DNA of 11,007 bases, taken from positions 1 to 11,007 of IMG/VR virus record IMGVR_UViG_3300029577_000220; one strand, written 5' to 3'. This document shows, one piece after another, positions 1 to 10,831 of this stretch; within the stretch, counting starts at the first letter, position 1, and the number at the start of each line of letters is the position of its first letter. The stretch comes from a virus. Its lineage: Duplodnaviria > Heunggongvirae > Uroviricota > Caudoviricetes. The notes under the pieces were generated by a model. The model made no database searches. It saw only the letters and a list, made by a program, of their open reading frames with translations, and was not told the DNA's origin. Both the position numbers and the translations under genes were made by a program.

Positions 1-1505
1 TGGTCTCTCATCCTTCTCCACTGCTGTACAAAATATAGTCTTAGCGTGGGATAATTTCCGTTTTCCAAGCGGACCCCTTTTTGTCCTCCATTCGCCCTGC
101 AAACAGGGTAGCCAGTTGGCCGATAATCAGAAGGTGAGACGCTCATAAGCTCTTTGCTGATGGTGGCCGACAGTGCGTCTTCGGTCATTTCACCGATTCC
201 GTCTTCCATCTCGTCGAGCGCCTTTAGCGCCTCCTCCAGAGTCATTTCATCCGGCGCAGGAACAAAGCCAGACTCACTGTCTTTGGGCACTTCCGCACCA
301 TCTTTATTTTCTTTGCCTTCGACGTCTTCTTCAGTTTCCCCACGATCAGTATCGGAGTCCTCACCGCCATCACCATCGATGCCAGAGCCATAACCATCAG
401 AATCATCGGTATCTTCGCGAATACCATCGCCAGGTCTTGGAGCGCCAGTGCCATTGCTGCCATCATCATCGGTGTCAGAGTCACTTGATTTCATGCCGAT
501 AGCATCGGATTCTGGGGTGTCTCCTGACTCTTCGTGGCCTGCTTCTGTATATTTACTTTCTGTATCACTAATATCTTTAACGTGTGTAGGTAAGTCCTTA
601 TCTAATGAATCAGGCAAATCGGAATCCCCAGAATCTTCCTCTTCTGATGCATCATCTTCTCGTTCTTCCTTGTCATCGCCTTCGCCTTTGGCAGGCTTAG
701 ATGCAGAGTCACCATGAGACGGCTCGTCACCTGATTCTGGCGTTTCCTCGGACTCGTCTTTGCTCTCCGACGGCTTTCTGGCAGATGATTTAAGTTCTGG
801 TAATTTGCCCTCTGGCTTGTCTTTCATATCCTGCATGATTTGGGCTATAGCAGCAGCGACCTTCACGCAATCCTCAGTGTTCGACATATTGCGAACGGCC
901 ACGTCTATACCATGCTCCTTTAGTAAGGCTACCGGCCTCTCGATAAGGCGCCAGTGTTCTTCCATAAAATCGATGAAGGGGCTTTGTCCATCCCAGGCGC
1001 GGACGACCGGGCAAAGGAAGAATTTCAAAAACAATTCACGCTGGTCTCCGTGACAGGCTAAAACCGCTTCTGGTACTTTATTCCTGAAGTATTTGTCGAT
1101 AACCAGACTCTGTGTTGCAAGTAAATTACGCCGGGTTCCGTTAAAGACCTGCCCCATTCTGCGTTCAATAAAAACGTCTTCCAGCGCATTCCAAAGCCCC
1201 GTAGACGGAGCCTTTCCTCTTTCGCGCATCTGCATTGCGACTTTCGGTTCAGTAAAGAGAATATGGGCCACCTCATGGTCGAGAAAACCACGCACTGCGT
1301 TCATGAGGGTTGGCGACGCGTCGTCCGGTATAGATGGGATGTTTACCAGCACTGGTTCGCCGCGCCGGTTATAGCGGACATATGCTTCATTGCCTCGTTC
1401 TGCAACAGGTATTTGTTTACCTGAAAGCATCGCTACAACTCGTTTTACACAGTCGCGAAAATCCTGCACCTCTTTCAGTACAGCTTTGGTGGTTTTTTTG
1501 GACAT
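1..1505 (-). CDS. Large protein with N-terminal globular region followed by a ~200-aa D/E/S/G-rich acidic low-complexity linker; architecture resembles CobT-like (cobaltochelatase CobT / vWA-associated) proteins. Start ATG at 1503-1505; 3' end lies beyond the window start, so ~501 codons are in the window.
   Basis: Minus-strand frame set by ATG 1503-1505 is open to position 3 (translated by hand at both ends: MSKKTTKAVLKEVQDFRDCVKRVVAMLSGKQIPVAERGNEAY ... SPSDYRPTGYPVCRANGGQKGVRLENGNYPTLRLYFVQQWRRMRD). AAGGGA Shine-Dalgarno-like sequence ~8 nt upstream of the ATG. The Ser-rich plus-strand ORFs in the track (154..717) are antisense shadows of the acidic repeat region. Family assignment is from architecture only. 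Confidence 0.6.
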   Translation of the reverse strand, partial: MSKKTTKAVLKEVQDFRDCVKRVVAMLSGKQIPVAERGNEAYVRYNRRGEPVLVNIPSIPDDASPTLMNAVRGFLDHEVAHILFTEPKVAMQMRERGKAPSTGLWNALEDVFIERRMGQVFNGTRRNLLATQSLVIDKYFRNKVPEAVLACHGDQRELFLKFFLCPVVRAWDGQSPFIDFMEEHWRLIERPVALLKEHGIDVAVRNMSNTEDCVKVAAAIAQIMQDMKDKPEGKLPELKSSARKPSESKDESEETPESGDEPSHGDSASKPAKGEGDDKEEREDDASEEEDSGDSDLPDSLDKDLPTHVKDISDTESKYTEAGHEESGDTPESDAIGMKSSDSDTDDDGSNGTGAPRPGDGIREDTDDSDGYGSGIDGDGGEDSDTDRGETEEDVEGKENKDGAEVPKDSESGFVPAPDEMTLEEALKALDEMEDGIGEMTEDALSATISKELMSVSPSDYRPTGYPVCRANGGQKGVRLENGNYPTLRLYFVQQWRRMRD

Positions 1506-1558
1506 TAGAATTCCCTTGTTGTTAAAACAATTTGTTTTCTGATGTGCGTAATTTATCA

Positions 1559-1591
1559 CTGTACGAACAGGCATCTAATCTGTTCGTACAG
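1559..1591. promoter_or_regulatory. Perfect 12-bp inverted repeat CTGTACGAACAG-N9-CTGTTCGTACAG in the 5' leader/promoter region of the 1..1505 gene; candidate operator or leader stem-loop.
   Basis: Arms 1559-1570 and 1580-1591 are exact reverse complements; located 54 bp upstream of the start codon at 1505. Confidence 0.4.
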
Positions 1592-1605
1592 GCGCTAGAG
1601 AGGAT

Positions 1606-1618
1606 GGGAGGGGGGGGG
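1606..1618. repeat. Homopolymeric G tract (GGGAG followed by 8 G) between the stop of the 1619..1831 ORF and the start of the 1..1505 gene.
   Basis: Direct reading of 1601-1620: aggatgggag ggggggggtt. Confidence 0.6.
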
Positions 1619-1831
1619 TTAAATTGTGCGGACGGCTACTGAACCGCAGCCGGTATTGATGAGAGTGAAGCACTTGCCCTTTAGCTCAAAGATGTATGCG
1701 GTTGCGTCTTTCATGTCAAGTAACAAAGACTTTGTTGGCAGTTCAGTGAGTATGGCTGCTGCCCCATCATCGTCAATTGAAATCGTATGTCCGACCTCAA
1801 GGGCGATCAAATTAGAAGTTATTTTTTTCAT
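1619..1831 (-). CDS. Hypothetical small protein (70 aa), divergent from the HTH regulator gene.
   Basis: ATG at 1829-1831 (minus), weak GGATGA SD-like sequence upstream; shares a 247-bp AT-rich divergent intergenic region with the 2088..2477 gene. No recognisable domain. Confidence 0.3.
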   Translation of the reverse strand: MKKITSNLIALEVGHTISIDDDGAAAILTELPTKSLLLDMKDATAYIFELKGKCFTLINTGCGSVAVRTI

Positions 1832-2087
1832 TTCATATCATCCAACTGAACACGTAAATACCTTGCAATACTACTACCTATTGTATCAATACGGAATACT
1901 TATGTATCAAATACAACTTAGTTTTAAGTTCTTAAATGAGTTATTTTTTAGATAGTTGTCTATTAATGAAGCCTTTTGCGGTCAGTAAACCTATGTAAAA
2001 AAATAGATAAGTCTTTACAACACTAACCTTTGATGTAATATCAGTAAGCACTTACCAAATAAAATCAAAACACGCAGGTTGATAATT

Positions 2088-2477
2088 ATGGCTACCAACG
2101 AAACAAAAGAAGCTAAAGTAAGTCGCTACGCTGCTTACATTGACGCTTTAATCGCGATTTCTCCGAAAAGCCAGGCGACCATCGCGAAAGAAGCAGGCTA
2201 TAAAAACCCTAACAATCTTTCACTTATCAAGAGCGGCAAAATCCCGCTTCCGATCGACAAGGTCAGAGCGTTGGCTAAAGCATTGGATGCCGATTCGGTC
2301 CGATTGATGCTAATGGTGCTGGAAGAGCGTCATCCAGAGCTGTTAGCGTTTTTTCGCGACGAAGGCACAGCCCCTCTGACTAAAGATGAAAAACTAGTTC
2401 TGGAAGCCTTCCGTCGACGTTTCGGTGACCAACGTGGTGCGTCGGAGCGGGTTGTTGAGGCAATCAAGTCGCTATGA
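2088..2477 (+). CDS. XRE/Cro-CI-type helix-turn-helix transcriptional regulator (129 aa from ATG 2088; the track ORF begins at an upstream in-frame TTG at 2079).
   Basis: HTH_3-like segment SQATIAKEAGYKNPNNLSLIKSGKIPLPIDKVRALAKALDAD; AGGT ~9 nt upstream of ATG 2088; AT-rich upstream region; convergent with the integrase and overlapping its 3' end by 6 bp. Confidence 0.65.
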   Translation: MATNETKEAKVSRYAAYIDALIAISPKSQATIAKEAGYKNPNNLSLIKSGKIPLPIDKVRALAKALDADSVRLMLMVLEERHPELLAFFRDEGTAPLTKDEKLVLEAFRRRFGDQRGASERVVEAIKSL

Positions 2478-3575
2478 GAAATTTACACGGATTAGCTCAG
2501 TAGCGAGTCGATCTCCCTTGAACTTATGATCTATCTCCTCTAAATCCTGTTTCTCTACGATTGATGCGATGTACGCCGAAAAACTGTTTAAGGCGTCTCG
2601 CATCTCGTCTATATAATCGTGTCGATCGTATACTCGATCTATCCCCTCAAGACTGTGGTTCATAATTTTGCGGGATACCTCCTGACTTATGCCTAACGCG
2701 GGGAAGTAACTACGCGCAGTACGACGCAAATCTCGGGGAGTAAATGGCTCAAGCTCCATCAACTCTGGACGTTCTAAAATCCTTCTCAACGCCTGTGATA
2801 TGGCCACCTTAGACATTGGCACATCCTCACCCTGTTTCTTGTTTGAAGGAACAAGCCACTGGCTGCCTTTTCCGTATTTGATCAGCTCCTCAACACATTT
2901 GCGCATTAGCGGGCTTAATGGTAACGAGTGCTGGCGAGCCGATTTATTCCTCGTTCCTTGATTCCATAAATTATATTCGAGGTTGAATTCTGATCTTTTA
3001 GCTCGGAGCACTTCATCTGGTCGTCTGGCCGCTACAAGGCATAATCTGGCCGCCCACTTTGTACCCTCACATACGTTGAAGTAGTCCCATACATTCCAAA
3101 AGACCCAGACCTCTGCGTCGGTCAGTTTGCGCTCGCGCGGCGTGGGCTTCGCGCCACCGGCTACTCTGTTAAGCGACATATCGTTCAATGGGGATGTATC
3201 AATTAAGCCCTGAAATGCACACCAACTGAGAAACTGCTTCATCAGCGAGAACACACGTCTGCCCTGGACGATCTTGCCCTCAAGTATTAATGGGTTCACC
3301 AGCTGGTTGACTAAAACCCTACTAATATCACTTACTTTTACTTCACAGATATGCGGCATTACATGTATCAAAATACAATGAACAGCTATTTCAGGTCGAC
3401 GTCTCGTTATCAGCAAAGATAAGCGAGTGAATAACATGAATGCGGAAGAAAACGACATATCACCGTCGAAATTGGTGGTCGACACTGCTGACAAACCGGA
3501 AGCGCGTTCGAGATACTCGATGGCTTCTCTAGAGGTGTTTTCTGCTGCGCGTGCTTTATCAAAAGTGTTTTTCAT
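2472..3575 (-). CDS. int: Tyrosine recombinase/integrase, P4-like family, lacking the N-terminal arm-binding (DUF4102-type) domain; possibly a truncated remnant.
   Basis: C-terminal catalytic region FTPRDLRRTARSYFPALGISQEVSRKIMNHSLEGIDRVYDRHDYID matches the integrase box II / R..Y architecture; core-binding region ISRVLVNQLVNPLILEGKIVQGRRVFSLMKQFLSWCAFQGLID matches the P4-integrase core-binding pattern. The region upstream of 3575 (3576-3874) is AT-rich and non-coding, so no arm-binding domain is encoded. Confidence 0.85.
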   Translation of the reverse strand: MKNTFDKARAAENTSREAIEYLERASGLSAVSTTNFDGDMSFSSAFMLFTRLSLLITRRRPEIAVHCILIHVMPHICEVKVSDISRVLVNQLVNPLILEGKIVQGRRVFSLMKQFLSWCAFQGLIDTSPLNDMSLNRVAGGAKPTPRERKLTDAEVWVFWNVWDYFNVCEGTKWAARLCLVAARRPDEVLRAKRSEFNLEYNLWNQGTRNKSARQHSLPLSPLMRKCVEELIKYGKGSQWLVPSNKKQGEDVPMSKVAISQALRRILERPELMELEPFTPRDLRRTARSYFPALGISQEVSRKIMNHSLEGIDRVYDRHDYIDEMRDALNSFSAYIASIVEKQDLEEIDHKFKGDRLATELIRVNFS

Positions 3576-3672
3576 AGTCCACTCACTGAGTGAAGCCTGT
3601 TTTTACTGTATTTATAAACAGTATGTTAGGCCTAAGTTTTGTATGATCAACAGTAAAATAGACTGTTTTTGA

Positions 3673-3707
3673 AAATGATTCCATACCTTACAAGTATGGA
3701 ATCATTT
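3673..3707. promoter_or_regulatory. Perfect 14-bp inverted repeat AAATGATTCCATAC-N7-GTATGGAATCATTT in the integrase upstream region; candidate operator/recombinase-binding site.
   Basis: Arms 3673-3686 and 3694-3707 are exact reverse complements; the arm core GTATGGAATCAT recurs at 5326-5337 and 6346-6357. Confidence 0.45.
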
Positions 3708-3874
3708 ATATAGCTTACGTAAATTCTGAATAAATTATGTAGACAAACCATCTTAAACGCTAAATAGTAAAAAGCGCCTAATAACGCCAACTTTGGAATG
3801 CCATCTGAGCCAGATTGATGAGAATGATTTGTTAGAAGAAAAAGAATGATGAAGAAGATGACGATCGCTAAAGT

Positions 3875-4291
3875 TCAGCTAGAATGGAAACCTTCTGCGA
3901 CTTCAGCGAAGTAGCTGAGCAACCTAGTATCTCTTGCTGGCATACGATCGTGAGCTGGAGTGACTAGCCCCATCAGCAAAAAACGCCCGCTATCCCACAT
4001 GTGCTCGGTATAAACGAGATAGTGGTTTGAGGTTCGGTTGTAGTTCTCTTGCCTTGCGTTCCAGGTAAGCTGGAAATGCAAATTGACGTGAATATGCTGG
4101 ACATTAGCATCAACGGCGAACGGCGGGAAGTCAAATGGCGCATCTCGTCCAAGAAGATTAGATGGTGCGCCAGTTGATTTGTAAGTAATGAACTCGGATT
4201 TGAGCTGACTTTCTAGGTCAGGGTAAACGACAAAAGTGGGCTGAAAAAAATCATCCCACGTAACTTGACTGTATTCAGCCGTTAATGCCAT
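3875..4291 (-). CDS. YafO-family toxin (ribosome-dependent mRNA interferase type), 138 aa.
   Basis: Block-wise resemblance to E. coli YafO recalled from memory: FITYKSTGAPSNLLGRDAPFDF vs FISYKRDGVLPDIFGRDALYDD; VQHIHV vs VAHIHL; RTSNHYLVYTE vs RTNDEAHLVYCQ; FLLMGLVTPAHDRMPARD vs WLLIAILKPEPHKLARD; AEGF vs AEAF. Start ATG 4289-4291 overlaps the upstream gene's last codons by 10 nt. Confidence 0.7.
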   Translation of the reverse strand: MALTAEYSQVTWDDFFQPTFVVYPDLESQLKSEFITYKSTGAPSNLLGRDAPFDFPPFAVDANVQHIHVNLHFQLTWNARQENYNRTSNHYLVYTEHMWDSGRFLLMGLVTPAHDRMPARDTRLLSYFAEVAEGFHSS

Positions 4292-4830
4292 TTAGCCGCA
4301 GCCTTGTTGCCAGTCTCTAATAGATGGTTCATGGCTAAAAGGTTGACACCAGAGTCACGCACTACAGAAGTGCGTGTAATCTGATCAATCAGATTGAGAT
4401 AGTTTTTGGTCGCAATACTGACCATTTTAATAGCCTTAAAAAACGCAAACTCAACAGTGTTTTTTTCGTAAGACATGATGACGTCTTTTTCAGGTAACAT
4501 CAAAACAAAAGATTCTGCGATACCGGCTACATGAATAGTTTGATTCTTAATTTCTTCCGCTACTTTGATAGCAGCAAAGAAGTCAGTGTCAGCATAATGA
4601 GCAAGTTCAGCGCGGCTTGAACGCAGTTCTTTAGCCAATTCATTGAGAGCAGCTGTAAGATCACTGATGTCGGTTTTGTTGACTCTAGCGCCCATCTCAT
4701 AAACCCGTTCTACAATCGTAGGCTGACACGCAACCGCTTTGGGTTGCGGCTGGATACTGGCAAGAACCAGTGCCACTGCTGCCTGCAAATGCTGGATTTT
4801 AAATTTCACGATAGACTCCATAATCGTCAT
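4282..4830 (-). CDS. Hypothetical 182-aa protein translationally coupled to the YafO-like toxin; putative cognate antitoxin/partner, not YafN/RelB-like.
   Basis: ORF with ATG at 4828-4830; stop TAA 4282-4284 overlaps the start of the YafO-like gene; no recognisable RelB/DinJ/YafN-like sequence and roughly twice the size of YafN. Confidence 0.6.
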   Translation of the reverse strand: MTIMESIVKFKIQHLQAAVALVLASIQPQPKAVACQPTIVERVYEMGARVNKTDISDLTAALNELAKELRSSRAELAHYADTDFFAAIKVAEEIKNQTIHVAGIAESFVLMLPEKDVIMSYEKNTVEFAFFKAIKMVSIATKNYLNLIDQITRTSVVRDSGVNLLAMNHLLETGNKAAAKWH

Positions 4831-5084: not shown

Positions 5085-5159
5085 TGGCGATGGTGGGTGG
5101 ACTCGAACCACCGACCAGTTGATTAACAGTCAACCGCTCTACCACTGAGCTACACCATC
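5085..5159 (-). tRNA. tRNA-Asn (anticodon GUU), 75 nt with encoded CCA.
   Basis: Minus-strand sequence GATGGTGTAGCTCAGTGGTAGAGCGGTTGACTGTTAATCAACTGGTCGGTGGTTCGAGTCCACCCACCATCGCCA folds by hand: acceptor GATGGTG/CACCATC, D-stem GCTC/GAGC, anticodon stem GTTGA/TCAAC with loop CTGTTAA, T-stem GGTGG/CCACC with loop TTCGAGT, discriminator G, CCA. Confidence 0.85.
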
Positions 5160-5408: not shown

Positions 5409-5518
5409 AACGTTGAGATCACTGAACCGATTAATGTTCAACCCAACATATTGATCAGTCGCTACAGCTATGTGGAATCGCCTGTATGATTTTAAGAAAA
5501 ATCAGTGATCTCAACGTT
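5409..5518. repeat. 17-bp perfect inverted repeat (AACGTTGAGATCACTGA ... TCAGTGATCTCAACGTT) separated by 76 bp in the non-coding region between the tRNA and the small-gene cluster; candidate structured ncRNA, origin-like element or MITE-like remnant.
   Basis: Arms 5409-5425 and 5502-5518 are exact reverse complements; no convincing ORF in 5160-5900. Confidence 0.4.
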
Positions 5519-5883
5519 ATGTGCTGACTAACCAAGTCAGCCGGGTTACGTCGCCGCTTTTAACCCAAGTATAAACGACATAAGTAATGGAAATGACGTA
5601 ACAGAATGGACGGTCAGCTGAAACCGGGATGGGTGAATGGAATGATGAAACCAACCGCCCATTCTGTTACTTCATTGAATGGGGCATGGATGGTGCAATA
5701 TGCCCTATTCTGCGTTCTGCAATCACACTCGCTCAGTGTGTCCCATTTTGGTGACGAGGCTGGAAACTGACCTCGCTGGTGTTTGGCTTCTTAGGCTACT
5801 GCCAGGTATGCATCTTCGTTTGCAGTTATATTTAACGTTCAAACAGTCGCATCTCAACGAAAACAAAGTGATCTTATACATAT

Positions 5884-5909
5884 TAGATAAGTAAGTAAAT
5901 ACTTATCTA
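5884..5909. promoter_or_regulatory. Palindromic site TAGATAAGTA-AGTAAA-TACTTATCTA overlapping the stop of the 5903..6208 gene; shares the 11-mer ATAAGTAAGTA with sites at 10811-10821 and 8582-8592 (reverse complement).
   Basis: 10-bp arms 5884-5893 and 5900-5909 are reverse complements; the 11-mer recurs at two other loci, both 5' of minus-strand genes. Confidence 0.4.
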
Positions 5910-6208
5910 TCTGTGATGCGTTTAGTTGCTATCTTTTTGATCAGGCTCCCCTTTTGTTCCGAAGTTCTCATGATGATGGCGGTAAAACGCTTCGCTTGAA
6001 TAGTGATAGTTTCGTTTTCCTTGAGTTCGCCGTAATGCGTCTCTAACAGGGACCCCAGACGCCACAGACCGTCGTCTATGCGTTTATGGCTGGCGAATCT
6101 GATCAGCAGTAGCTTTACGATTAACTGACCAATGTAAAAGGCAAATCCGAAGCCGGCCGCCACAAGGTAGGTTGCCAGCCACCAGTCGAAGGAAGTCAAA
6201 TTGCTCAT
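5903..6208 (-). CDS. Hypothetical small membrane protein (101 aa).
   Basis: ORF with ATG 6206-6208; hydrophobic segment WWLATYLVAAGFGFAFYIGQLIVKLLLI; start overlaps the stop of the upstream 50-aa ORF (ATGA). Confidence 0.5.
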   Translation of the reverse strand: MSNLTSFDWWLATYLVAAGFGFAFYIGQLIVKLLLIRFASHKRIDDGLWRLGSLLETHYGELKENETITIQAKRFTAIIMRTSEQKGSLIKKIATKRITDR

Positions 6209-6357
6209 TTTCGCACTCCCGTCTCGTGAACAACCCGATACACACGCTTACCGACACGAAGTGTTTTGGTTTGCAGTTCCTGCTGGACCAGGGCGCGGCA
6301 GATTGCGAGGCCGAGGCCCACGCCACCAGTAAAAGATAAAATGATGTATGGAATCAT
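6205..6357 (-). CDS. Hypothetical 50-aa protein with a hydrophobic N-terminus (MIPYIILSFTGGVGLGLAICRALVQQ...); not in the supplied ORF track (below the size cutoff).
   Basis: Hand translation: ATG at 6355-6357 overlaps the TGA of the 6357..6569 gene (TGATG), and its own TGA (6205-6207) overlaps the ATG of the 5903..6208 gene (ATGA). Confidence 0.3.
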   Translation of the reverse strand: MIPYIILSFTGGVGLGLAICRALVQQELQTKTLRVGKRVYRVVHETGVRK

Positions 6358-6569
6358 CAGTGCGCCCCCGCCTCAGTCAATTGCTGCAACAACAAATAAC
6401 CTTTTTCAGTCAGTTGATAGTTCTCAATACATCCCTTTGGAGAAACGTTGGCGACAAGATTCATGCGCTCCAGTTTGGCTCTGGTCTTCGGCTTCCAGTT
6501 GGCGTAGAACTCCTTCCACTTGCTGATTTCACGCAGGGTTTCCTTCTCTCGTTTACTTAACATGCTCAT
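6357..6569 (-). CDS. Hypothetical small soluble protein (70 aa), Lys/Glu-rich, possibly DNA-binding.
   Basis: ORF with ATG 6567-6569; embedded in the overlapping gene chain downstream of the ligase. Confidence 0.45.
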   Translation of the reverse strand: MSMLSKREKETLREISKWKEFYANWKPKTRAKLERMNLVANVSPKGCIENYQLTEKGYLLLQQLTEAGAH

Positions 6570-6729
6570 CCTTAATCTCCTTCAGTGTGTCCGTGATATC
6601 TACTATGCGATAAATACGACCTCGCCTTTGCATGACACCGGCTTTTACGTAATCGTGGATACAGCTGGACATAACCAGACTTCCGATAACAATGCCGACG
6701 ACTAAAAATACAAACATCCAGCCGAGCAT
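6553..6729 (-). CDS. Hypothetical 58-aa protein with an N-terminal transmembrane helix (MLGWMFVFLVVGIVIGSLVM...); not in the supplied ORF track.
   Basis: Hand translation: ATG at 6727-6729 shares one base with the ligase stop codon (TGATG); TAA at 6553-6555 lies inside the start of the next gene. Confidence 0.3.
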   Translation of the reverse strand: MLGWMFVFLVVGIVIGSLVMSSCIHDYVKAGVMQRRGRIYRIVDITDTLKEIKDEHVK

Positions 6730-8051
6730 CATTCTTTATCTCCAATACGATCTTCGGTATCTCGAAGACATTTAGGCCACTTCAGACGTGGATGACGCAA
6801 GCTACCATCTGGCGTTTTCTCATGGCAGTGAACCTCAACGATGCGTCCACGATACTTCTCCTGATTGTTCCAGATTTCATCCAGGTATTTATGCTTGATA
6901 CCGCTGGCACGAACGATGACGCCGTTCTCCAGACGAATCACTATCTTGCCTAGCGTATGCGCAAATCCAGAATCCGGATCGCCAGGCTCGAAGTCGATGA
7001 TTTCACCGTCTTCTGAATCCTCGTCTTTCAGCTTCCACCAGCTGCGGGTACGTTTGAACTCGTAAACTGAATCCGGATCTTTGCCCATCTCTCCCTCTTC
7101 ATTCTCGTCCAGTCGCTTCATGAAACGTTCGATGAAATCTTCGTGGCTATGGATGATGTAGAACGGATGAAGGTGGATATCTTGCGCATAATCTTCCACG
7201 CAAGTGTTGCGGAACAACGCCACCAGCATAGCCAGGCGCTCTTTCAGCTTCATACCGGTCTTCAGGTACTCTTTGCTTTTTGCTTGAGCACGCCACTCCG
7301 GTAAGAAGAAATCGAAAATGTGGTAAACGGCACCAATGGCTTTCACGTTCTTCTTACGAAGCGCCGACACTGACTGGTTGAATGTACCTGCAGTGCCCTC
7401 TCCATCGAAGAAGATGTGATTGAAGCCGGAGAGTCTGCCCCGCTCCAGCATGGCTGGTTTAAGGTGATCGAGTGACGTAATCGGATTGCCGGTGCGCGTC
7501 AGGAAATTGACCTCACCCTCGTCCACGATGACTTCGCAGATAACCCGGAGACCATCGAGTTTGAGACTGCCGATCATTGGCCACTTGGCCTTTGGATTTG
7601 GTTTAAATGGGTATTTGTCGCCTTTCTCCTTGTACGGAGACGCCAGCTGTACCTCAAACTTCGGAATTGGGTTTTCGAACACCTTGTTGCACAGGCTGAT
7701 GCCGACACCGGCTTTCGGATCTTTCAGCAGGAAGCGACGAAACACGTCCTGCCCGTCAGCGCACATCGAGGCAACGAGTGATTCGACAGCAGCAATAGCG
7801 ATGTTCCCGGTCAGTTCGCGCGCTGCCAGCTTCTCCAGCAGATCTACTACCTTCTGGTCGCTGGGTACGGAAGTATCGAGTGGCTCGGCCACTTTGTACT
7901 TCTTCACACCGAATCGAATGAATGGATTGAGCATTAGCGAGACCATGCTCTGTTCAAATTCATCCAGATTGGCCAGCGCCTCTTTCTTGGCGTTGGTTCC
8001 CATCGTTTTAATAGCATCCAGCTTGTGCTTTAGGGCGATCAGTTTTTCCAT
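6729..8051 (-). CDS. ATP-dependent DNA ligase, T7-like (phage-type), 440 aa, with an ~80-aa N-terminal extension.
   Basis: Nucleotidyltransferase motif I KLDGLR; motif III FFDGEG; motifs IV-V EGEMGKDPDSVYEFKRTRSWWKLK (compare T7 ligase EGLIIKDP...SGWWKMK from memory); C-terminal motif VI TPDGSLRHPRL...RD. GGAGG Shine-Dalgarno 9 nt upstream of the ATG at 8051. Confidence 0.9.
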   Translation of the reverse strand: MEKLIALKHKLDAIKTMGTNAKKEALANLDEFEQSMVSLMLNPFIRFGVKKYKVAEPLDTSVPSDQKVVDLLEKLAARELTGNIAIAAVESLVASMCADGQDVFRRFLLKDPKAGVGISLCNKVFENPIPKFEVQLASPYKEKGDKYPFKPNPKAKWPMIGSLKLDGLRVICEVIVDEGEVNFLTRTGNPITSLDHLKPAMLERGRLSGFNHIFFDGEGTAGTFNQSVSALRKKNVKAIGAVYHIFDFFLPEWRAQAKSKEYLKTGMKLKERLAMLVALFRNTCVEDYAQDIHLHPFYIIHSHEDFIERFMKRLDENEEGEMGKDPDSVYEFKRTRSWWKLKDEDSEDGEIIDFEPGDPDSGFAHTLGKIVIRLENGVIVRASGIKHKYLDEIWNNQEKYRGRIVEVHCHEKTPDGSLRHPRLKWPKCLRDTEDRIGDKE

Positions 8052-8643: not shown

Positions 8644-9099
8644 TTACCAGGTCGCCCAGCCAGTCATTTTGTCCTGAGCAGCTTCGAACCGGTATGGGTC
8701 CAGTAAATCGTTGGTACGATGAACGGCGTAGGATTTGGCTTCTTGTTTAATCATGGGTAATTCGTTGGCCAGACGAGCCACTTGCCCTGCAAAACTGGCG
8801 AGTACTCCGTCACATGCCTGACCCACGTCGACAATGATGCGCACCAGGTCTAAGTCGCTGCGGCACATATCGCAGATAATGCCGTATTCCACCTCACGAA
8901 TGCGCTCAACGGCTTTTTTGATATCGCCACTGACCACCAATTCCAGCAAACCAGGTGGAGTTGTCAGATCTGTTACGCGCTCGGTAACTTCAGACTGTTC
9001 GACAATACTCAGGAACGCCGCGATGGACGGGTCATCCGCCACACCAGCTCTGACTTTGAGCGTGCGAAGAGTTGCGTCGACAATATCCTCAAACCGTTC
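8644..9099 (-). pseudogene. 3' portion (151 codons) of a ~270-codon gene interrupted by IS629; product unknown.
   Basis: The track ORF 8644..9042 (GTG start) extends in frame, with no stop, up to the IS boundary at 9099 (ERFEDIVDATLRTLKVRAGV ADDPSIAAF...). The frame is continuous with the fragment at 10410..10769 once the IS and one TTC copy are removed. Confidence 0.7.
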
Positions 9100-9153: not shown

Positions 9154-9480
9154 ATGACTAAAAATACTCGTTTTTCCCCCGAAGTCCGTCAGCGGGCGAT
9201 TCGTATGGTTCTGGAAAGTCAGGATGAATATGACTCACAGTGGGCGGCAATTTGTTCCATTGCCCCAAAGATTGGCTGTACGCCGGAGACTCTGCGTGTC
9301 TGGGTTCGCCAGCATGAGCGGGATACCGGGGGCGGTGATGGTGGGCTCACCAGCGCTGAACGTCAGCGTCTGAAAGAGCTGGAACGTGAAAATCGTGAAC
9401 TGCGCCGCAGTAACGATATCCTTCGCCAGGCTTCCGCTTATTTTGCGAAGGCGGAGTTCGACCGCCTCTGGAAAAAATGA
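9154..9480 (+). CDS. IS629 transposase OrfA (HTH and leucine-zipper part), 108 aa.
   Basis: [23 protein letters not shown]... is typical of IS629/IS1203-group OrfA; ends ...LWKK* at the A6 run 9472-9477, the expected -1 frameshift window. Confidence 0.9.
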
Positions 9481-10367
9481 TGCCACTGCTGGATAAGCTG
9501 CGTGAGCAGTACGGGGTCGGACCGGTATGCAGCGAACTGCATATTGCCCCGTCAACGTATTACCATTGTCAGCAACAGCGACATCATCCGGATAAACGCA
9601 GTGCCCGTGCGCAGCACGACGACTGGCTGAAGAGAGAGATACAGCGCGTATACGATGAAAATCATCAGGTGTACGGTGTGCGTAAAGTCTGGCGTCAGTT
9701 GTTACGGGAAGGAATCAGGGTGGCCAGATGTACAGTGGCACGTCTCATGGCGGTTATGGGACTTGCCGGTGTTCTCCGGGGTAAAAAGGTCCGTACGACC
9801 ATCAGCCGGAAAGCCGTTGCCGCAGGCGACCGCGTAAACCGTCAGTTCGTGGCAGAACGACCTGACCAGCTGTGGGTGGCTGATTTTACTTACGTCAGCA
9901 CATGGCAGGGCTTCGTCTATGTGGCGTTTATCATTGATGTGTTTGCCGGATACATCGTGGGGTGGCGGGTCTCATCGTCTATGGAAACGACATTCGTGCT
10001 GGATGCGCTGGAGCAGGCGTTGTGGGCCCGTCGTCCGTCTGGCACCATCCATCACAGCGATAAAGGCTCTCAGTATGTGTCACTGGCCTATACGGAGCGA
10101 CTAAAAGAAGCCGGATTACTGGCATCAACAGGGAGTACAGGCGACTCGTATGACAACGCGATGGCTGAGAGCATCAATGGTCTTTACAAAGCGGAGGTAA
10201 TACACCGTAAGAGCTGGAAAAACCGTGCAGAAGTGGAACTGGCCACACTAACGTGGGTGGACTGGTATAACAATCGACGATTGCTGGGAAGGCTGGGCCA
10301 TACTCCTCCGGCAGAAGCAGAAAAAGCTTATTATGCTTCCATCGGAAACGATGATCTGGCAGCCTGA
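9477..10367 (+). CDS. IS629 transposase OrfB (DDE/rve catalytic domain), 296 aa; expressed as an OrfAB fusion by -1 frameshifting.
   Basis: rve-type motifs [58 protein letters not shown]; overlaps orfA by 4 nt in the -1 frame. Confidence 0.9.
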
Positions 10368-10809: not shown

Positions 10810-10831
10810 AATAAGTAAGTATCTACTTATT
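10810..10831. promoter_or_regulatory. Palindromic site AATAAGTA-AGTATC-TACTTATT in the promoter region of the interrupted gene; same motif family as 5884-5909.
   Basis: 8-bp arms are reverse complements; contains the 11-mer ATAAGTAAGTA; ~40 bp upstream of the start at 10769. Confidence 0.4.

What the first reader, a model, noticed from the sequence alone, without database searches (positions are those of the whole stretch)
5903..6729. Chain of four overlapping small genes (three with transmembrane helices) directly downstream of the DNA ligase
Genes of 58, 70, 50 and 101 codons are linked by ATGA/TGATG start-stop overlaps, implying tight translational coupling. Two of them (6553-6729 and 6205-6357) are below the ORF-track cutoff and were found only by hand translation. 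Small membrane-protein clusters of this kind in phages are often superinfection-exclusion, host-takeover or lysis-timing modules and are commonly unannotated.
Basis: partly seen in the sequence, partly recalled or inferred. Interest (0 to 1): 0.55.

Follow-up and report, generated by a model that had tools for sequence, protein, structure and literature searches.

The report
Four small genes after phage ligase
Four real, conserved but functionally uncharacterised small genes (three membrane-anchored mini-proteins and one tiny winged-helix protein) end the replication operon of an SSU5-like phage-plasmid; they are already catalogued as hypothetical proteins.

Summary
On the minus strand, four ORFs follow an ATP-dependent DNA ligase: A 58/59 aa, B 70 aa, C 50 aa, D 101 aa. 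All four are intact and under purifying selection in divergent SSU5-like phage-plasmids (pHCM2, pMT1, pLF82/Cyrano, Klebsiella elements). The overlap geometry is conserved, but A/B is a 17-nt overlap, not ATGA/TGATG. A, C and D each have one N-terminal TM helix and a basic tail predicted to face the cytoplasm. A and C are paralogues. B models as a minimal winged helix. SSU5 already annotates all four (SSU5_045-048), and each falls in a PHROG of unknown function. No homologue was found outside this phage-plasmid supergroup. A canonical holin/endolysin/Rz/Rz1 cassette lies about 10 kb away in Cyrano. The genes are silent in an LF82 lysogen, like the ligase. Natural variants lack A, or C+D. The best reading is that these are individually dispensable accessory genes of the lytic replication operon acting at the inner face of the membrane; the mechanism is inferred, not shown. 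A by-product may be more interesting: an unannotated, highly conserved ~370-nt candidate structured RNA lies just downstream of D, next to a repeated intergenic palindrome.

The parts
6729..8051 (-). ATP-dependent DNA ligase (440 aa). It is the upstream gene of the same operon, and its stop overlaps the start of A.
   Evidence: ORF. Pfam PF01068 at E 5.5e-12. Annotated as DNA ligase in SSU5, Cyrano and the plasmids.
6553..6732 (-). Gene A: 59 aa from 6732, or 58 aa from the conserved ATG at 6729. It has an N-terminal TM helix (about residues 5-25) and a tail carrying the RRGRIYRIVDIT motif. It is a paralogue of C and the most dispensable member.
   Evidence: Hydropathy 2.57. phrog_4381 at E 1e-38. 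dN/dS 0.05-0.17 for most pairs. hhalign against C gives prob 94%, E 9e-8. Present at >=80% coverage in 478 PLSDB records against 636-669 for B, C and D. Cleanly deleted in L008.
6357..6569 (-). Gene B: 70 aa, soluble and basic, a minimal winged-helix protein. The first ATG is the conserved start and gives a 17-nt overlap with A.
   Evidence: phrog_4054 at E 3e-44. AF2 model pLDDT 82 with H-H-hairpin-H topology. Foldseek PDB top hits are MarR-family wHTH domains: MepR and MexR, TMq 0.74-0.79, E about 0.02. Weak HMM match of the wing region to the HxlR-type PA1607. dN/dS about 0.1. The second ATG is not conserved.
6205..6357 (-). Gene C: 50 aa, with an N-terminal TM helix and a basic tail carrying the GKRVYRVVHET motif. 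It is a paralogue of A.
   Evidence: Hydropathy 1.83, K+R 8 against D+E 2. phrog_6302 at E 1e-32. dN/dS 0.16-0.5. Paralogy. Present in divergent lineages L020, L022 and L023.
5903..6208 (-). Gene D: 101 aa. It has an N-terminal TM helix that continues into a long cytoplasmic helix, then a beta-hairpin (ITIQ-AK-RFTAII) and a basic C-terminus. It is the last gene of the operon. Databases label it 'C-type natriuretic protein'.
   Evidence: Hydropathy 1.84. phrog_4507 at E 5e-58. AF2 gives H3-59, E67-71, E76-80 at pLDDT 68. dN/dS 0.07-0.24. Only 18 representatives among 1.84 billion proteins. It persists alone after the replication genes in a ligase-less lineage (L025).
6727..6743 (-). Translation-initiation region of A (GGAGATAAAGAATGATG). 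This is copy 1 of a ~15-nt direct repeat that flanks gene A.
   Evidence: Read from the sequence. It recurs at the A/B junction. The A-less variant L008 joins the ligase end directly to the B start at this repeat.
6565..6580 (-). Translation-initiation region of B (GGAGATTAAGGATGAG). This is copy 2 of the direct repeat.
   Evidence: It matches copy 1 at 13 of 15 positions and lies 163 nt away.
5892..5905 (.). 14-bp palindrome TAAGTA-TT-TACTTA overlapping the stop codon of D. It marks the 3' boundary of the operon and is one copy of a repeated intergenic motif.
   Evidence: Conserved in 21 of 33 fetched loci. In the window, 4 matches with <=2 mismatches against 0.07 expected. In 50 kb of Cyrano, 11 matches against 0.2 expected, nearly all just upstream of gene or operon starts, including 31301, upstream of the first gene of the replication operon.

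Best explanation
The four ORFs are genuine, translationally linked genes at the distal end of the lytic DNA-replication operon (helicase, primase, two unknowns, ligase, A, B, C, D) of an SSU5-like phage-plasmid.

A, C and D are bitopic inner-membrane mini-proteins with a predicted N-out/C-in topology. There is no K/R before the TM helix and a cluster of K/R after it. Each presents a short basic beta-hairpin-type tail to the cytoplasm. A and C are paralogues. D has the same architecture with a longer juxtamembrane helix. B is a 70-aa minimal winged-helix protein, probably nucleic-acid binding.

The genes are repressed in the plasmid-prophage state together with the ligase, so they act during lytic development. 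They are individually dispensable accessory genes.

Inferred mechanism: they work at the cytoplasmic face of the inner membrane, most likely tethering or organising phage DNA or replisome components there, in the manner of phi29 p16.7/p1.

Shown: the genes are real, conserved and arranged as described, and they are silent in a lysogen. Modelled or predicted: the TM helices, the folds and the A/C paralogy. Inferred: topology, co-transcription, and the membrane-tethering role.
For: - Reality and selection: the ORFs are intact in 13 divergent elements, dN/dS is well below 1 and synonymous sites are saturated.
- Coupling: overlaps and SD-like motifs are conserved.
- Operon context: helicase, primase, x, x, ligase, then the block. 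The repeated palindrome occurs before the operon and after D, with no copy between them. No sigma-70-like promoter stands out inside the block.
- Persistence: D-family genes stay at the end of the replication genes even where the ligase is absent (L025). C+D follow the ligase directly in L023.
- Membrane anchors and basic tails.
- A/C paralogy: hhalign prob 94%, E 9e-8, gapless over 50 columns.
- B as a winged helix. Its invariant residues P27-K28-T29-R30 lie in the second helix and N50-Y51-Q52-L53-T54 in the wing.
- Silent in the lysogen: LF82 S1 table log2(fpkm+5) values are B 2.97/2.32, C 2.32/2.32, D 2.83/3.0 and ligase 2.45/2.66, against repressor 6.75/6.39 (PMC9928086).
- Dispensability: A-less, C/D-disrupted and ligase+A+B-deleted natural variants exist. 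PLSDB census.
Against: - No experiment and no homology connects any of the four proteins to replication, to DNA tethering or to any characterised family.
- The D model has low confidence (pLDDT 68, pTM 0.30). The hairpins of A and C were not modelled.
- Topology rests only on the positive-inside rule.
- The members occur in several different combinations (D alone; C+D; B+C+D; A+B). This argues against an obligate four-part complex and fits independent activities equally well.
- Phage early and middle operons routinely mix replication genes with unrelated host-takeover genes, so position is weak evidence of function.
- phi29 p16.7 binds DNA through a helical domain, not a hairpin.
Confidence: 0.35

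Rival explanations
1. Host take-over. Each small membrane protein acts on its own by binding and inhibiting or redirecting a host inner-membrane protein (division, envelope synthesis, transport or FtsH-type proteolysis), as SPO1 gp56 does (my own knowledge). B is a separate small transcription regulator. Placement in the replication operon only provides early or middle timing.
For: The members are lost and retained independently: D alone, C+D, B+C+D, A+B. Single TM helices with short tails are typical of small-protein modulators of membrane proteins (my own knowledge). The genes are silent in the lysogen and co-regulated with lytic genes. No interdependence was detected.
Against: No homology to any known take-over protein. 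Strongly basic cytoplasmic tails (C net +6, D about +6) and an interleaved winged helix suggest nucleic-acid or anionic-lipid contacts rather than TM-TM modulation. Toxicity was not tested.
Confidence: 0.3
2. Superinfection exclusion or anti-phage defence. The membrane proteins block DNA entry of related phages, either during lytic growth (as T4 Imm/Sp do) or in the lysogen.
For: Small inner-membrane proteins are the usual agents of exclusion (my own knowledge). The region just beyond the block is a cargo hotspot carrying AbiH and toxin-antitoxin genes in relatives.
Against: No PADLOC hit. Expression is at background in the LF82 lysogen. The predicted cytoplasmic tails leave almost nothing in the periplasm, where injection is usually blocked. 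The genes sit inside the replication operon, not in the cargo region downstream of the tRNA.
Confidence: 0.12
3. Lysis timing. A, C and D are holin, antiholin or spanin-like proteins.
For: Each has a single TM helix and a charged tail. A has a Met-Met start in some lineages and a lipobox-like VMSSC.
Against: A complete holin/endolysin/Rz/Rz1 cassette is annotated about 10 kb away in Cyrano. The Met-Met start is absent from the SSU5, pHCM2 and pMT1 lineages. The Cys is replaced by Ser in L018 and is absent in the divergent A'. The tails are predicted to be cytoplasmic. The genes lie in an operon with replication genes, not late genes.
Confidence: 0.05
4. The ORFs are chance reading frames or decaying remnants with no function.
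For: They are very short, two fall below common ORF cut-offs, and natural variants lack some of them.
Against: dN/dS is well below 1 with saturated dS. Indels preserve the frame. Starts, SD-like motifs and overlaps are conserved. The genes are present in about 480-670 plasmid records across 10+ genera.
Confidence: 0.01

Closest known systems
SSU5_045-048 and their orthologues (pHCM2, pMT1, pLF82/Cyrano CYRAN_37-39, Klebsiella phage-plasmids); PHROGs 4381, 4054, 6302 and 4507
   Same: Direct orthologues at 62-100% amino-acid identity, in the same order, with the same overlaps and the same position after the ligase.
   Different: Nothing of substance; this window is one more member. All are 'hypothetical' or unknown function. 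D carries the propagated label 'C-type natriuretic protein', which no search here supports.
Phage phi29 p16.7 (and p1): membrane-anchored organisers of phage DNA replication (my own knowledge)
   Same: A small protein encoded among replication genes. It has an N-terminal TM anchor, a helical stalk (as in D) and a basic cytoplasmic domain.
   Different: No sequence or fold similarity was found. p16.7 binds DNA through a helical homeodomain-like dimer, whereas here the tails are short beta-hairpins and the only DNA-binding-type fold is the separate protein B. The host is Gram-negative. DNA binding was not tested.
MarR/HxlR/PadR-type winged helix-turn-helix regulators (for B)
   Same: The predicted fold superposes on the wHTH core of MepR, MexR, AdcR and FabT (TMq 0.7-0.79). 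The wing motif YQLTxKG resembles that of HxlR-type PA1607.
   Different: B is only 70 aa and lacks the N- and C-terminal dimerisation helices of MarR proteins. No Pfam or NCBIfam model reaches threshold. Foldseek E-values are weak (about 0.02).
Small phage membrane proteins of host take-over or exclusion (SPO1 gp56, T4 Imm/Sp, HK97 gp15) (my own knowledge)
   Same: Size, a single TM helix, accessory and dispensable character, and early or middle operon placement.
   Different: No homology. The predicted tails are cytoplasmic rather than periplasmic. No expression in the lysogen.

Membership tests
PHROG 4381 / 4054 / 6302 / 4507 (SSU5-like hypothetical proteins) | Full-length significant match to the family profile | tested here: met
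   E 1e-38, 3e-44, 1e-32 and 5e-58, each covering the whole profile.
PHROG 4381 / 4054 / 6302 / 4507 (SSU5-like hypothetical proteins) | Syntenic position after the ligase in SSU5-like elements | tested here: met
   Same order and same overlaps in SSU5, Cyrano, pJN2-26, pHCM2, pMT1 and Klebsiella plasmids.
Holin / antiholin | Encoded in the lysis cassette next to the endolysin | tested here: not met
   Holin, endolysin, Rz and Rz1 are CYRAN_22-25 at 26.7-28.2 kb. The block lies at 37.4-38.2 kb behind the ligase.
Holin / antiholin | Conserved dual-start motif | tested here: not met
   The Met-Met start of A is absent from the SSU5, pHCM2 and pMT1 lineages.
Spanin (Rz / Rz1) | o-spanin: lipobox with an invariant Cys. 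i-spanin: periplasmic coiled-coil C-terminal domain. | tested here: not met
   The Cys in VMSSC of A is Ser in L018 and is missing in A' of L020. K/R clusters follow the TM helices, which predicts cytoplasmic tails. Topology itself was not measured.
Known anti-phage defence / exclusion proteins (PADLOC-DB) | Match to a defence-system profile | tested here: not met
   No hit for A, B or C. D has only a chance-level hit at E 0.048.
Prophage moron / lysogen-expressed exclusion gene | Transcribed in the lysogen independently of lytic genes | tested here: not met
   In the LF82 RNA-seq data, B, C and D are at or near zero, like the ligase, and they are not in the >=5x-background list. This is one host, one growth condition, and an orthologue rather than this element.
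MarR-family transcription regulators (B) | Winged helix-turn-helix core fold | tested here: met
   AF2 pLDDT 82. Foldseek TMq 0.74-0.79 to MepR and MexR. This is a prediction, and the E-values are weak.
MarR-family transcription regulators (B) | Match to a family sequence profile, and N/C-terminal dimerisation helices (about 140 aa) | tested here: not met
   No Pfam or NCBIfam hit above threshold. B is 70 aa and aligns only to the central wHTH of targets of about 140 aa (TMt about 0.4).
phi29 p16.7-like membrane replication organisers | N-terminal TM anchor and encoding among replication genes | tested here: met
phi29 p16.7-like membrane replication organisers | C-terminal helical DNA-binding domain; DNA binding and membrane localisation of replication | not testable with these tools
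   The D model shows a beta-hairpin plus a low-confidence helix, not a homeodomain-like fold. Binding and localisation need experiments.
Type I toxin-like small hydrophobic peptides (Hok/TisB type) | Stand-alone locus with an antisense RNA antitoxin | tested here: not met
   The genes are embedded in an operon with overlapping neighbours. Rfam has no hit in 5903-6732.

The most novel reading that the evidence does not exclude
A, C and D (a lineage-restricted family with a TM helix and a basic beta-hairpin tail), together with the mini winged-helix protein B, form a previously undescribed membrane-tethering device. It would anchor replicating phage-plasmid DNA, or a replisome component, to the inner membrane of enterobacteria: a Gram-negative functional analogue of phi29 p16.7 built from separate parts.
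Probability: 0.12. Interest if true: 0.6.

Novelty: already known. Interest (0 to 1): 0.27.

Why it matters
SSU5-like phage-plasmids (pHCM2 of S. Typhi, pMT1 of Y. pestis, pLF82, and many Klebsiella, Enterobacter and E. coli plasmids) are widespread in clinical Enterobacterales. Their lytic replication module has not been characterised.

The block is one of several conserved sets of unknown genes in that module. Knowing whether it organises replication at the membrane or disables a host function would help explain how these elements switch from plasmid to phage.

The practical results here are modest:
- Corrected gene boundaries and overlaps.
- Recognition that A and C are paralogues.
- Recognition that the label 'C-type natriuretic protein' has no support.
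- A set of natural knock-out variants that could guide experiments.

The adjacent unannotated conserved RNA-like element and the repeated palindrome may be the more rewarding leads.

Tried and rejected
**Profile and sequence searches**
- Pfam, NCBIfam and PADLOC scans of the four proteins returned only chance-level hits.
- A PDB sequence search with the B profile gave nothing significant; the best match was E 0.15.
- Word-indexed homologue searches with profiles of B, D and A+C returned only SSU5-supergroup proteins without functional names.
- An exhaustive HMMER search of 1.84 billion representatives with the D profile gave 18 hits. All are the same family except one chance repeat protein.

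**Structure**
- Foldseek of the D model against viral structures gave nothing (best E 0.86). The model is too weak (pLDDT 68) to justify more searches.

**Relatedness among the four**
- hhalign of D against A and against C gave no support (prob 0.2% and 3.6%). The shared xxR-phi-[YT]-x-phi-phi-xxT hairpin motif that I saw by eye in D remains only a resemblance.

**Alternative readings of A**
- A as a lipoprotein was rejected because the Cys is not conserved.
- A's dual start as a holin-like motif was rejected because it is not conserved.

**Signals around the block**
- The promoter and terminator scan found nothing above shuffled expectation in or after the block.

**The candidate RNA**
- Rfam gave no family for the downstream conserved element at either the gathering or the E-value threshold.
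- I checked whether the element matches the published Y. pestis pMT1 sRNAs sR082 and sR083. They map elsewhere, near ymt and a DUF4145 gene.
- The 138-aa gene that replaces C and D in Klebsiella variants has no informative domain.
Full report
**What the window is.** The region is 92% identical to Salmonella phage SSU5 and 99.8% identical to an E. coli IncFIB plasmid. The window therefore comes from an SSU5-like phage-plasmid, the group that includes pHCM2 of S. Typhi, pMT1 of Y. pestis and pLF82/Cyrano. DNA of the block is found in 766 PLSDB plasmid records from Klebsiella, Escherichia, Enterobacter, Salmonella, Yersinia, Citrobacter, Cronobacter and others.

**Checking the observation.**
- All genes lie on the minus strand. 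The 440-aa ORF at 6729-8051 is an ATP-dependent DNA ligase (PF01068).
- Four ORFs follow it: A at 6553-6732 (59 aa, or 58 aa from 6729), B at 6357-6569 (70 aa), C at 6205-6357 (50 aa) and D at 5903-6208 (101 aa).
- A, C and D each have one N-terminal hydrophobic stretch (19-residue Kyte-Doolittle means 2.57, 1.83 and 1.84). B has none.
- The junctions are lig/A ATGATG, B/C TGATG (1 nt) and C/D ATGA (4 nt).
The first ATG of B is the conserved start, because the second ATG is GTA in other lineages.
- The only start of A shared by all lineages is the ATG at 6729.

**Are they real genes?** I extracted the orthologous ORFs from 13 full-length relatives spanning about 70-100% nucleotide identity.
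- All four frames are intact. Length changes are in whole codons and lie near the C-termini.
- Nei-Gojobori dN/dS is about 0.05-0.17 for A (one close pair gives 0.55 on 15 substitutions), about 0.1 for B, 0.16-0.5 for C and 0.07-0.24 for D. Synonymous sites are saturated or nearly so between the major lineages.
- Junction geometry is invariant (A/B -17, C/D -4, B/C -1 or -4). A GGAG-type motif precedes each start.
- These are protein-coding genes under purifying selection, arranged so that translational coupling is plausible. Translation itself was not measured.

**What is already on record.** SSU5 RefSeq annotates all four as SSU5_045-048. Each matches a PHROG of unknown function over its full length (4381, 4054, 6302, 4507). 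Annotation elsewhere is patchy: Cyrano lacks A and several PGAP records lack C. D carries the name 'C-type natriuretic protein' in many records. No search here supports that name, so I regard it as a propagated mislabel.

**The proteins.**
- A and C are paralogues. Profile-profile comparison gives a gapless 50-column alignment at probability 94% and E 9e-8 once divergent members are included. G12, R38 and Y40 (C numbering) are invariant, and the shared tail motif is [GR]-R-phi-Y-R-[IV]-[IV]-x-x-T.
- D is not detectably related to A or C. Its AlphaFold model (pLDDT 68, low) shows the same plan: a TM helix continuing into a long helix (residues 3-59), then a beta-hairpin (67-71 and 76-80), then a weak C-terminal helix.
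- None of the three has K/R before the TM helix, and all have K/R clusters after it. C and D carry a net charge of about +6 in the tail. The positive-inside rule therefore predicts N-out/C-in topology with cytoplasmic tails. This is an inference.
- B models with pLDDT 82 as helix-helix-beta-hairpin-helix. Its best PDB fold matches are the winged-helix cores of MarR-family proteins (MepR, MexR, AdcR, FabT; TMq 0.7-0.79, E about 0.02). The wing motif weakly matches an HxlR-type protein.
- B is half the size of a MarR protein and matches no curated profile. I call it a minimal winged helix, not a MarR-family member.

**Distribution.**
- Profile searches of 5.8 billion clustered proteins for B, D and A+C found only proteins on contigs of about 100-112 kb from Enterobacterales, none with a functional name. 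An exhaustive HMMER search with the D profile found 18 representatives among 1.84 billion proteins. The families are confined to the SSU5 supergroup.
- More divergent lineages keep the layout with partial membership: ligase-A'-B'-C'-D' (L020), ligase-B'-C'-D' (L022), ligase-C-D (L023), and D alone directly after the replication genes in a lineage with no ligase (L025).
- In PLSDB, tblastn at >=80% coverage finds the ligase in 609 records, A in 478, B in 636, C in 669 and D in 643.

**Natural knock-outs.**
- A is precisely absent in E. coli ESBL242-type plasmids. The lig/A and A/B translation-initiation regions form a ~15-nt direct repeat (GGAGAT[A/T]AAG[A/G]ATGA, 13 of 15 identical, 163 nt apart). 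The A-less variant is exactly the product of recombination between the two copies.
- In a large group of Klebsiella plasmids, C is truncated and D destroyed by insertion of a 138-aa tail-anchored gene with its own TATAAT box. Remnants of D remain.
- One Klebsiella plasmid lacks ligase residues 76-440 together with A and B.
- In pMT1 the ligase is truncated next to an IS100, but the four small genes are intact.
- The members are therefore individually dispensable, at least for plasmid maintenance, and they are not an obligate four-part unit.

**Context and expression.**
- In Cyrano the transcription unit reads hypothetical, helicase, primase, two hypotheticals, ligase, [A], B, C, D, then a non-coding stretch and tRNAs.
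- A complete lysis cassette (holin, endolysin, Rz, Rz1) lies about 10 kb upstream.
- In the published LF82 lysogen RNA-seq (PMC9928086, S1 table), log2(fpkm+5) values in LB are 2.97/2.32 for B, 2.32/2.32 for C (zero reads) and 2.83/3.0 for D. This is like the ligase (2.45/2.66) and far below the repressor (6.75/6.39). None of them is in the list of genes at least 5-fold above background.
- The block is therefore repressed in the plasmid-prophage state along with the lytic replication genes.

**Interpretation.**
- Lysis timing is unlikely. The lysis cassette is elsewhere, the tails are predicted to be cytoplasmic, and neither the dual start nor the lipobox-like Cys of A is conserved.
- A lysogen-expressed exclusion function is unlikely, because there is no expression and no PADLOC hit.
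- What remains is a lytic-cycle accessory role at the inner face of the membrane.
- I favour, at low confidence (0.35), a role in tethering or organising phage DNA or the replisome at the membrane, functionally like phi29 p16.7/p1. The reasons are the position inside the replication operon, the persistence of D at the end of that operon even without the ligase, the strongly basic tails, and the interleaved winged-helix protein.
- The nearly equal rival (0.30) is independent host take-over by small membrane proteins. The mix-and-match presence and absence of the members fits that rival at least as well.
- Nothing here is experimental evidence of function.

**By-products.**
- The ~370 nt immediately downstream of D (window 5495-5870, gene strand) is more conserved than the flanking genes. 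Column identity is 0.9-0.99 over much of it. It occurs in 773 plasmid records, 764 of them at >=80% identity, and is never annotated. It is retained even where C and D are destroyed.
- The same region folds into a consensus of 14 helices and 91 pairs. 98.9% of cells are paired, and 7 pairs show compensatory changes against 2.6 in shuffles (0 of 500 shuffles reach the observed value). Slid controls give 34-46% paired. Many invariant G-U pairs favour the gene strand, and the alifold energy is -104.8 against -81.6 for the opposite strand. Because the structure was derived from the same sequences, this support is moderate.
- Rfam has no match for it, and it is not one of the published pMT1 sRNAs. 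It is a candidate new structured RNA lying next to phage tRNA genes.
- The palindrome TAAGTA-NN-TACTTA overlaps the stop codon of D. It recurs at 10816-10829 in the window and at seven mostly intergenic, promoter-proximal places in 50 kb of Cyrano (11 matches against 0.2 expected). One copy lies just upstream of the first gene of the replication operon.
- The palindrome looks like a dispersed operator or promoter element. A ligase-less lineage carries a symmetrically changed version, TATGTA-TT-TACATA.

**Verdict.** The feature is real, and the description is accurate apart from one junction. It is already catalogued as hypothetical genes, its function is unknown, and it is of modest interest.

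Noticed in passing
window 5495-5870 (minus strand), between gene D and tRNA-Asn (5085-5159): An unannotated non-coding element of about 370 nt that is more conserved than the neighbouring genes. It is in 773 PLSDB records, 764 of them at >=80% identity. The consensus fold has 91 pairs, 98.9% paired, with 7 compensatory pairs (0 of 500 shuffles reach this). The gene strand is favoured. There is no Rfam match, and it is not one of the published pMT1 sRNAs. It is a candidate new structured RNA next to phage tRNA genes.
   Followed up: partly
window 5892-5905 and 10816-10829; L029 (Cyrano) 3528-3545, 9023-9036, 15530-15543, 22453-22466, 31301-31314, 38253-38266 and 45264-45277: The 14-bp palindrome TAAGTA-NN-TACTTA recurs far above chance (11 matches against 0.2 expected in Cyrano; 4 against 0.07 in the window). 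Almost all copies lie in intergenic DNA 15-65 nt upstream of gene or operon starts, including both ends of the replication operon. It is probably a dispersed operator or promoter element. A divergent lineage (L025 ~6295-6312) has a symmetrically altered version.
   Followed up: partly
window 6727-6743 and 6565-6580; L008 ~2200-2230: Gene A is flanked by a ~15-nt direct repeat made of the two translation-initiation regions. E. coli plasmids of the ESBL242 type have exactly the deletion between the two copies, joining the ligase end to the B start.
   Followed up: yes
L010 1992-2408 (also L011): In many Klebsiella phage-plasmids, C is truncated and D destroyed by an inserted 138-aa gene. That gene has a C-terminal hydrophobic tail anchor, its own TATAAT box and no informative domain. 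A remnant of the D C-terminus survives downstream.
   Followed up: partly
window 5903-6208 and its orthologues: The product name 'C-type natriuretic protein' is attached to D in SSU5 RefSeq and many PGAP records. No Pfam, NCBIfam or structure search supports it, so it looks like a propagated mislabel.
   Followed up: yes
window 9154-10367 (ALIL pseudoknot at 9435-9551): An IS3-family insertion sequence with two overlapping transposase ORFs and the Rfam ALIL frameshift pseudoknot (121 bits). It sits upstream of the replication genes, and the neighbouring ORF 8644-9042 may be truncated by it.
   Followed up: no
window 2079-4830: Cargo and lysogeny region beyond the tRNA. It holds an integrase (2472-3575), a divergent small ORF matching the position of Cyrano's repressor (2079-2477, plus strand), and a YafO-family toxin (3875-4291) with an upstream partner ORF (4282-4830). 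Relatives carry different cargo at this place: AbiH, a Gp49-family protein, PhoH, the caf1 operon in Y. pestis, and integron or Tn3 resistance genes.
   Followed up: partly
L005 (Y. pestis pMT1) 1140-3949: In pMT1 the ligase lacks its first 92 residues next to an IS100, but the four small genes and the conserved non-coding element are intact. The non-coding element lies directly beside caf1R, the regulator of the F1 capsule operon.
   Followed up: partly
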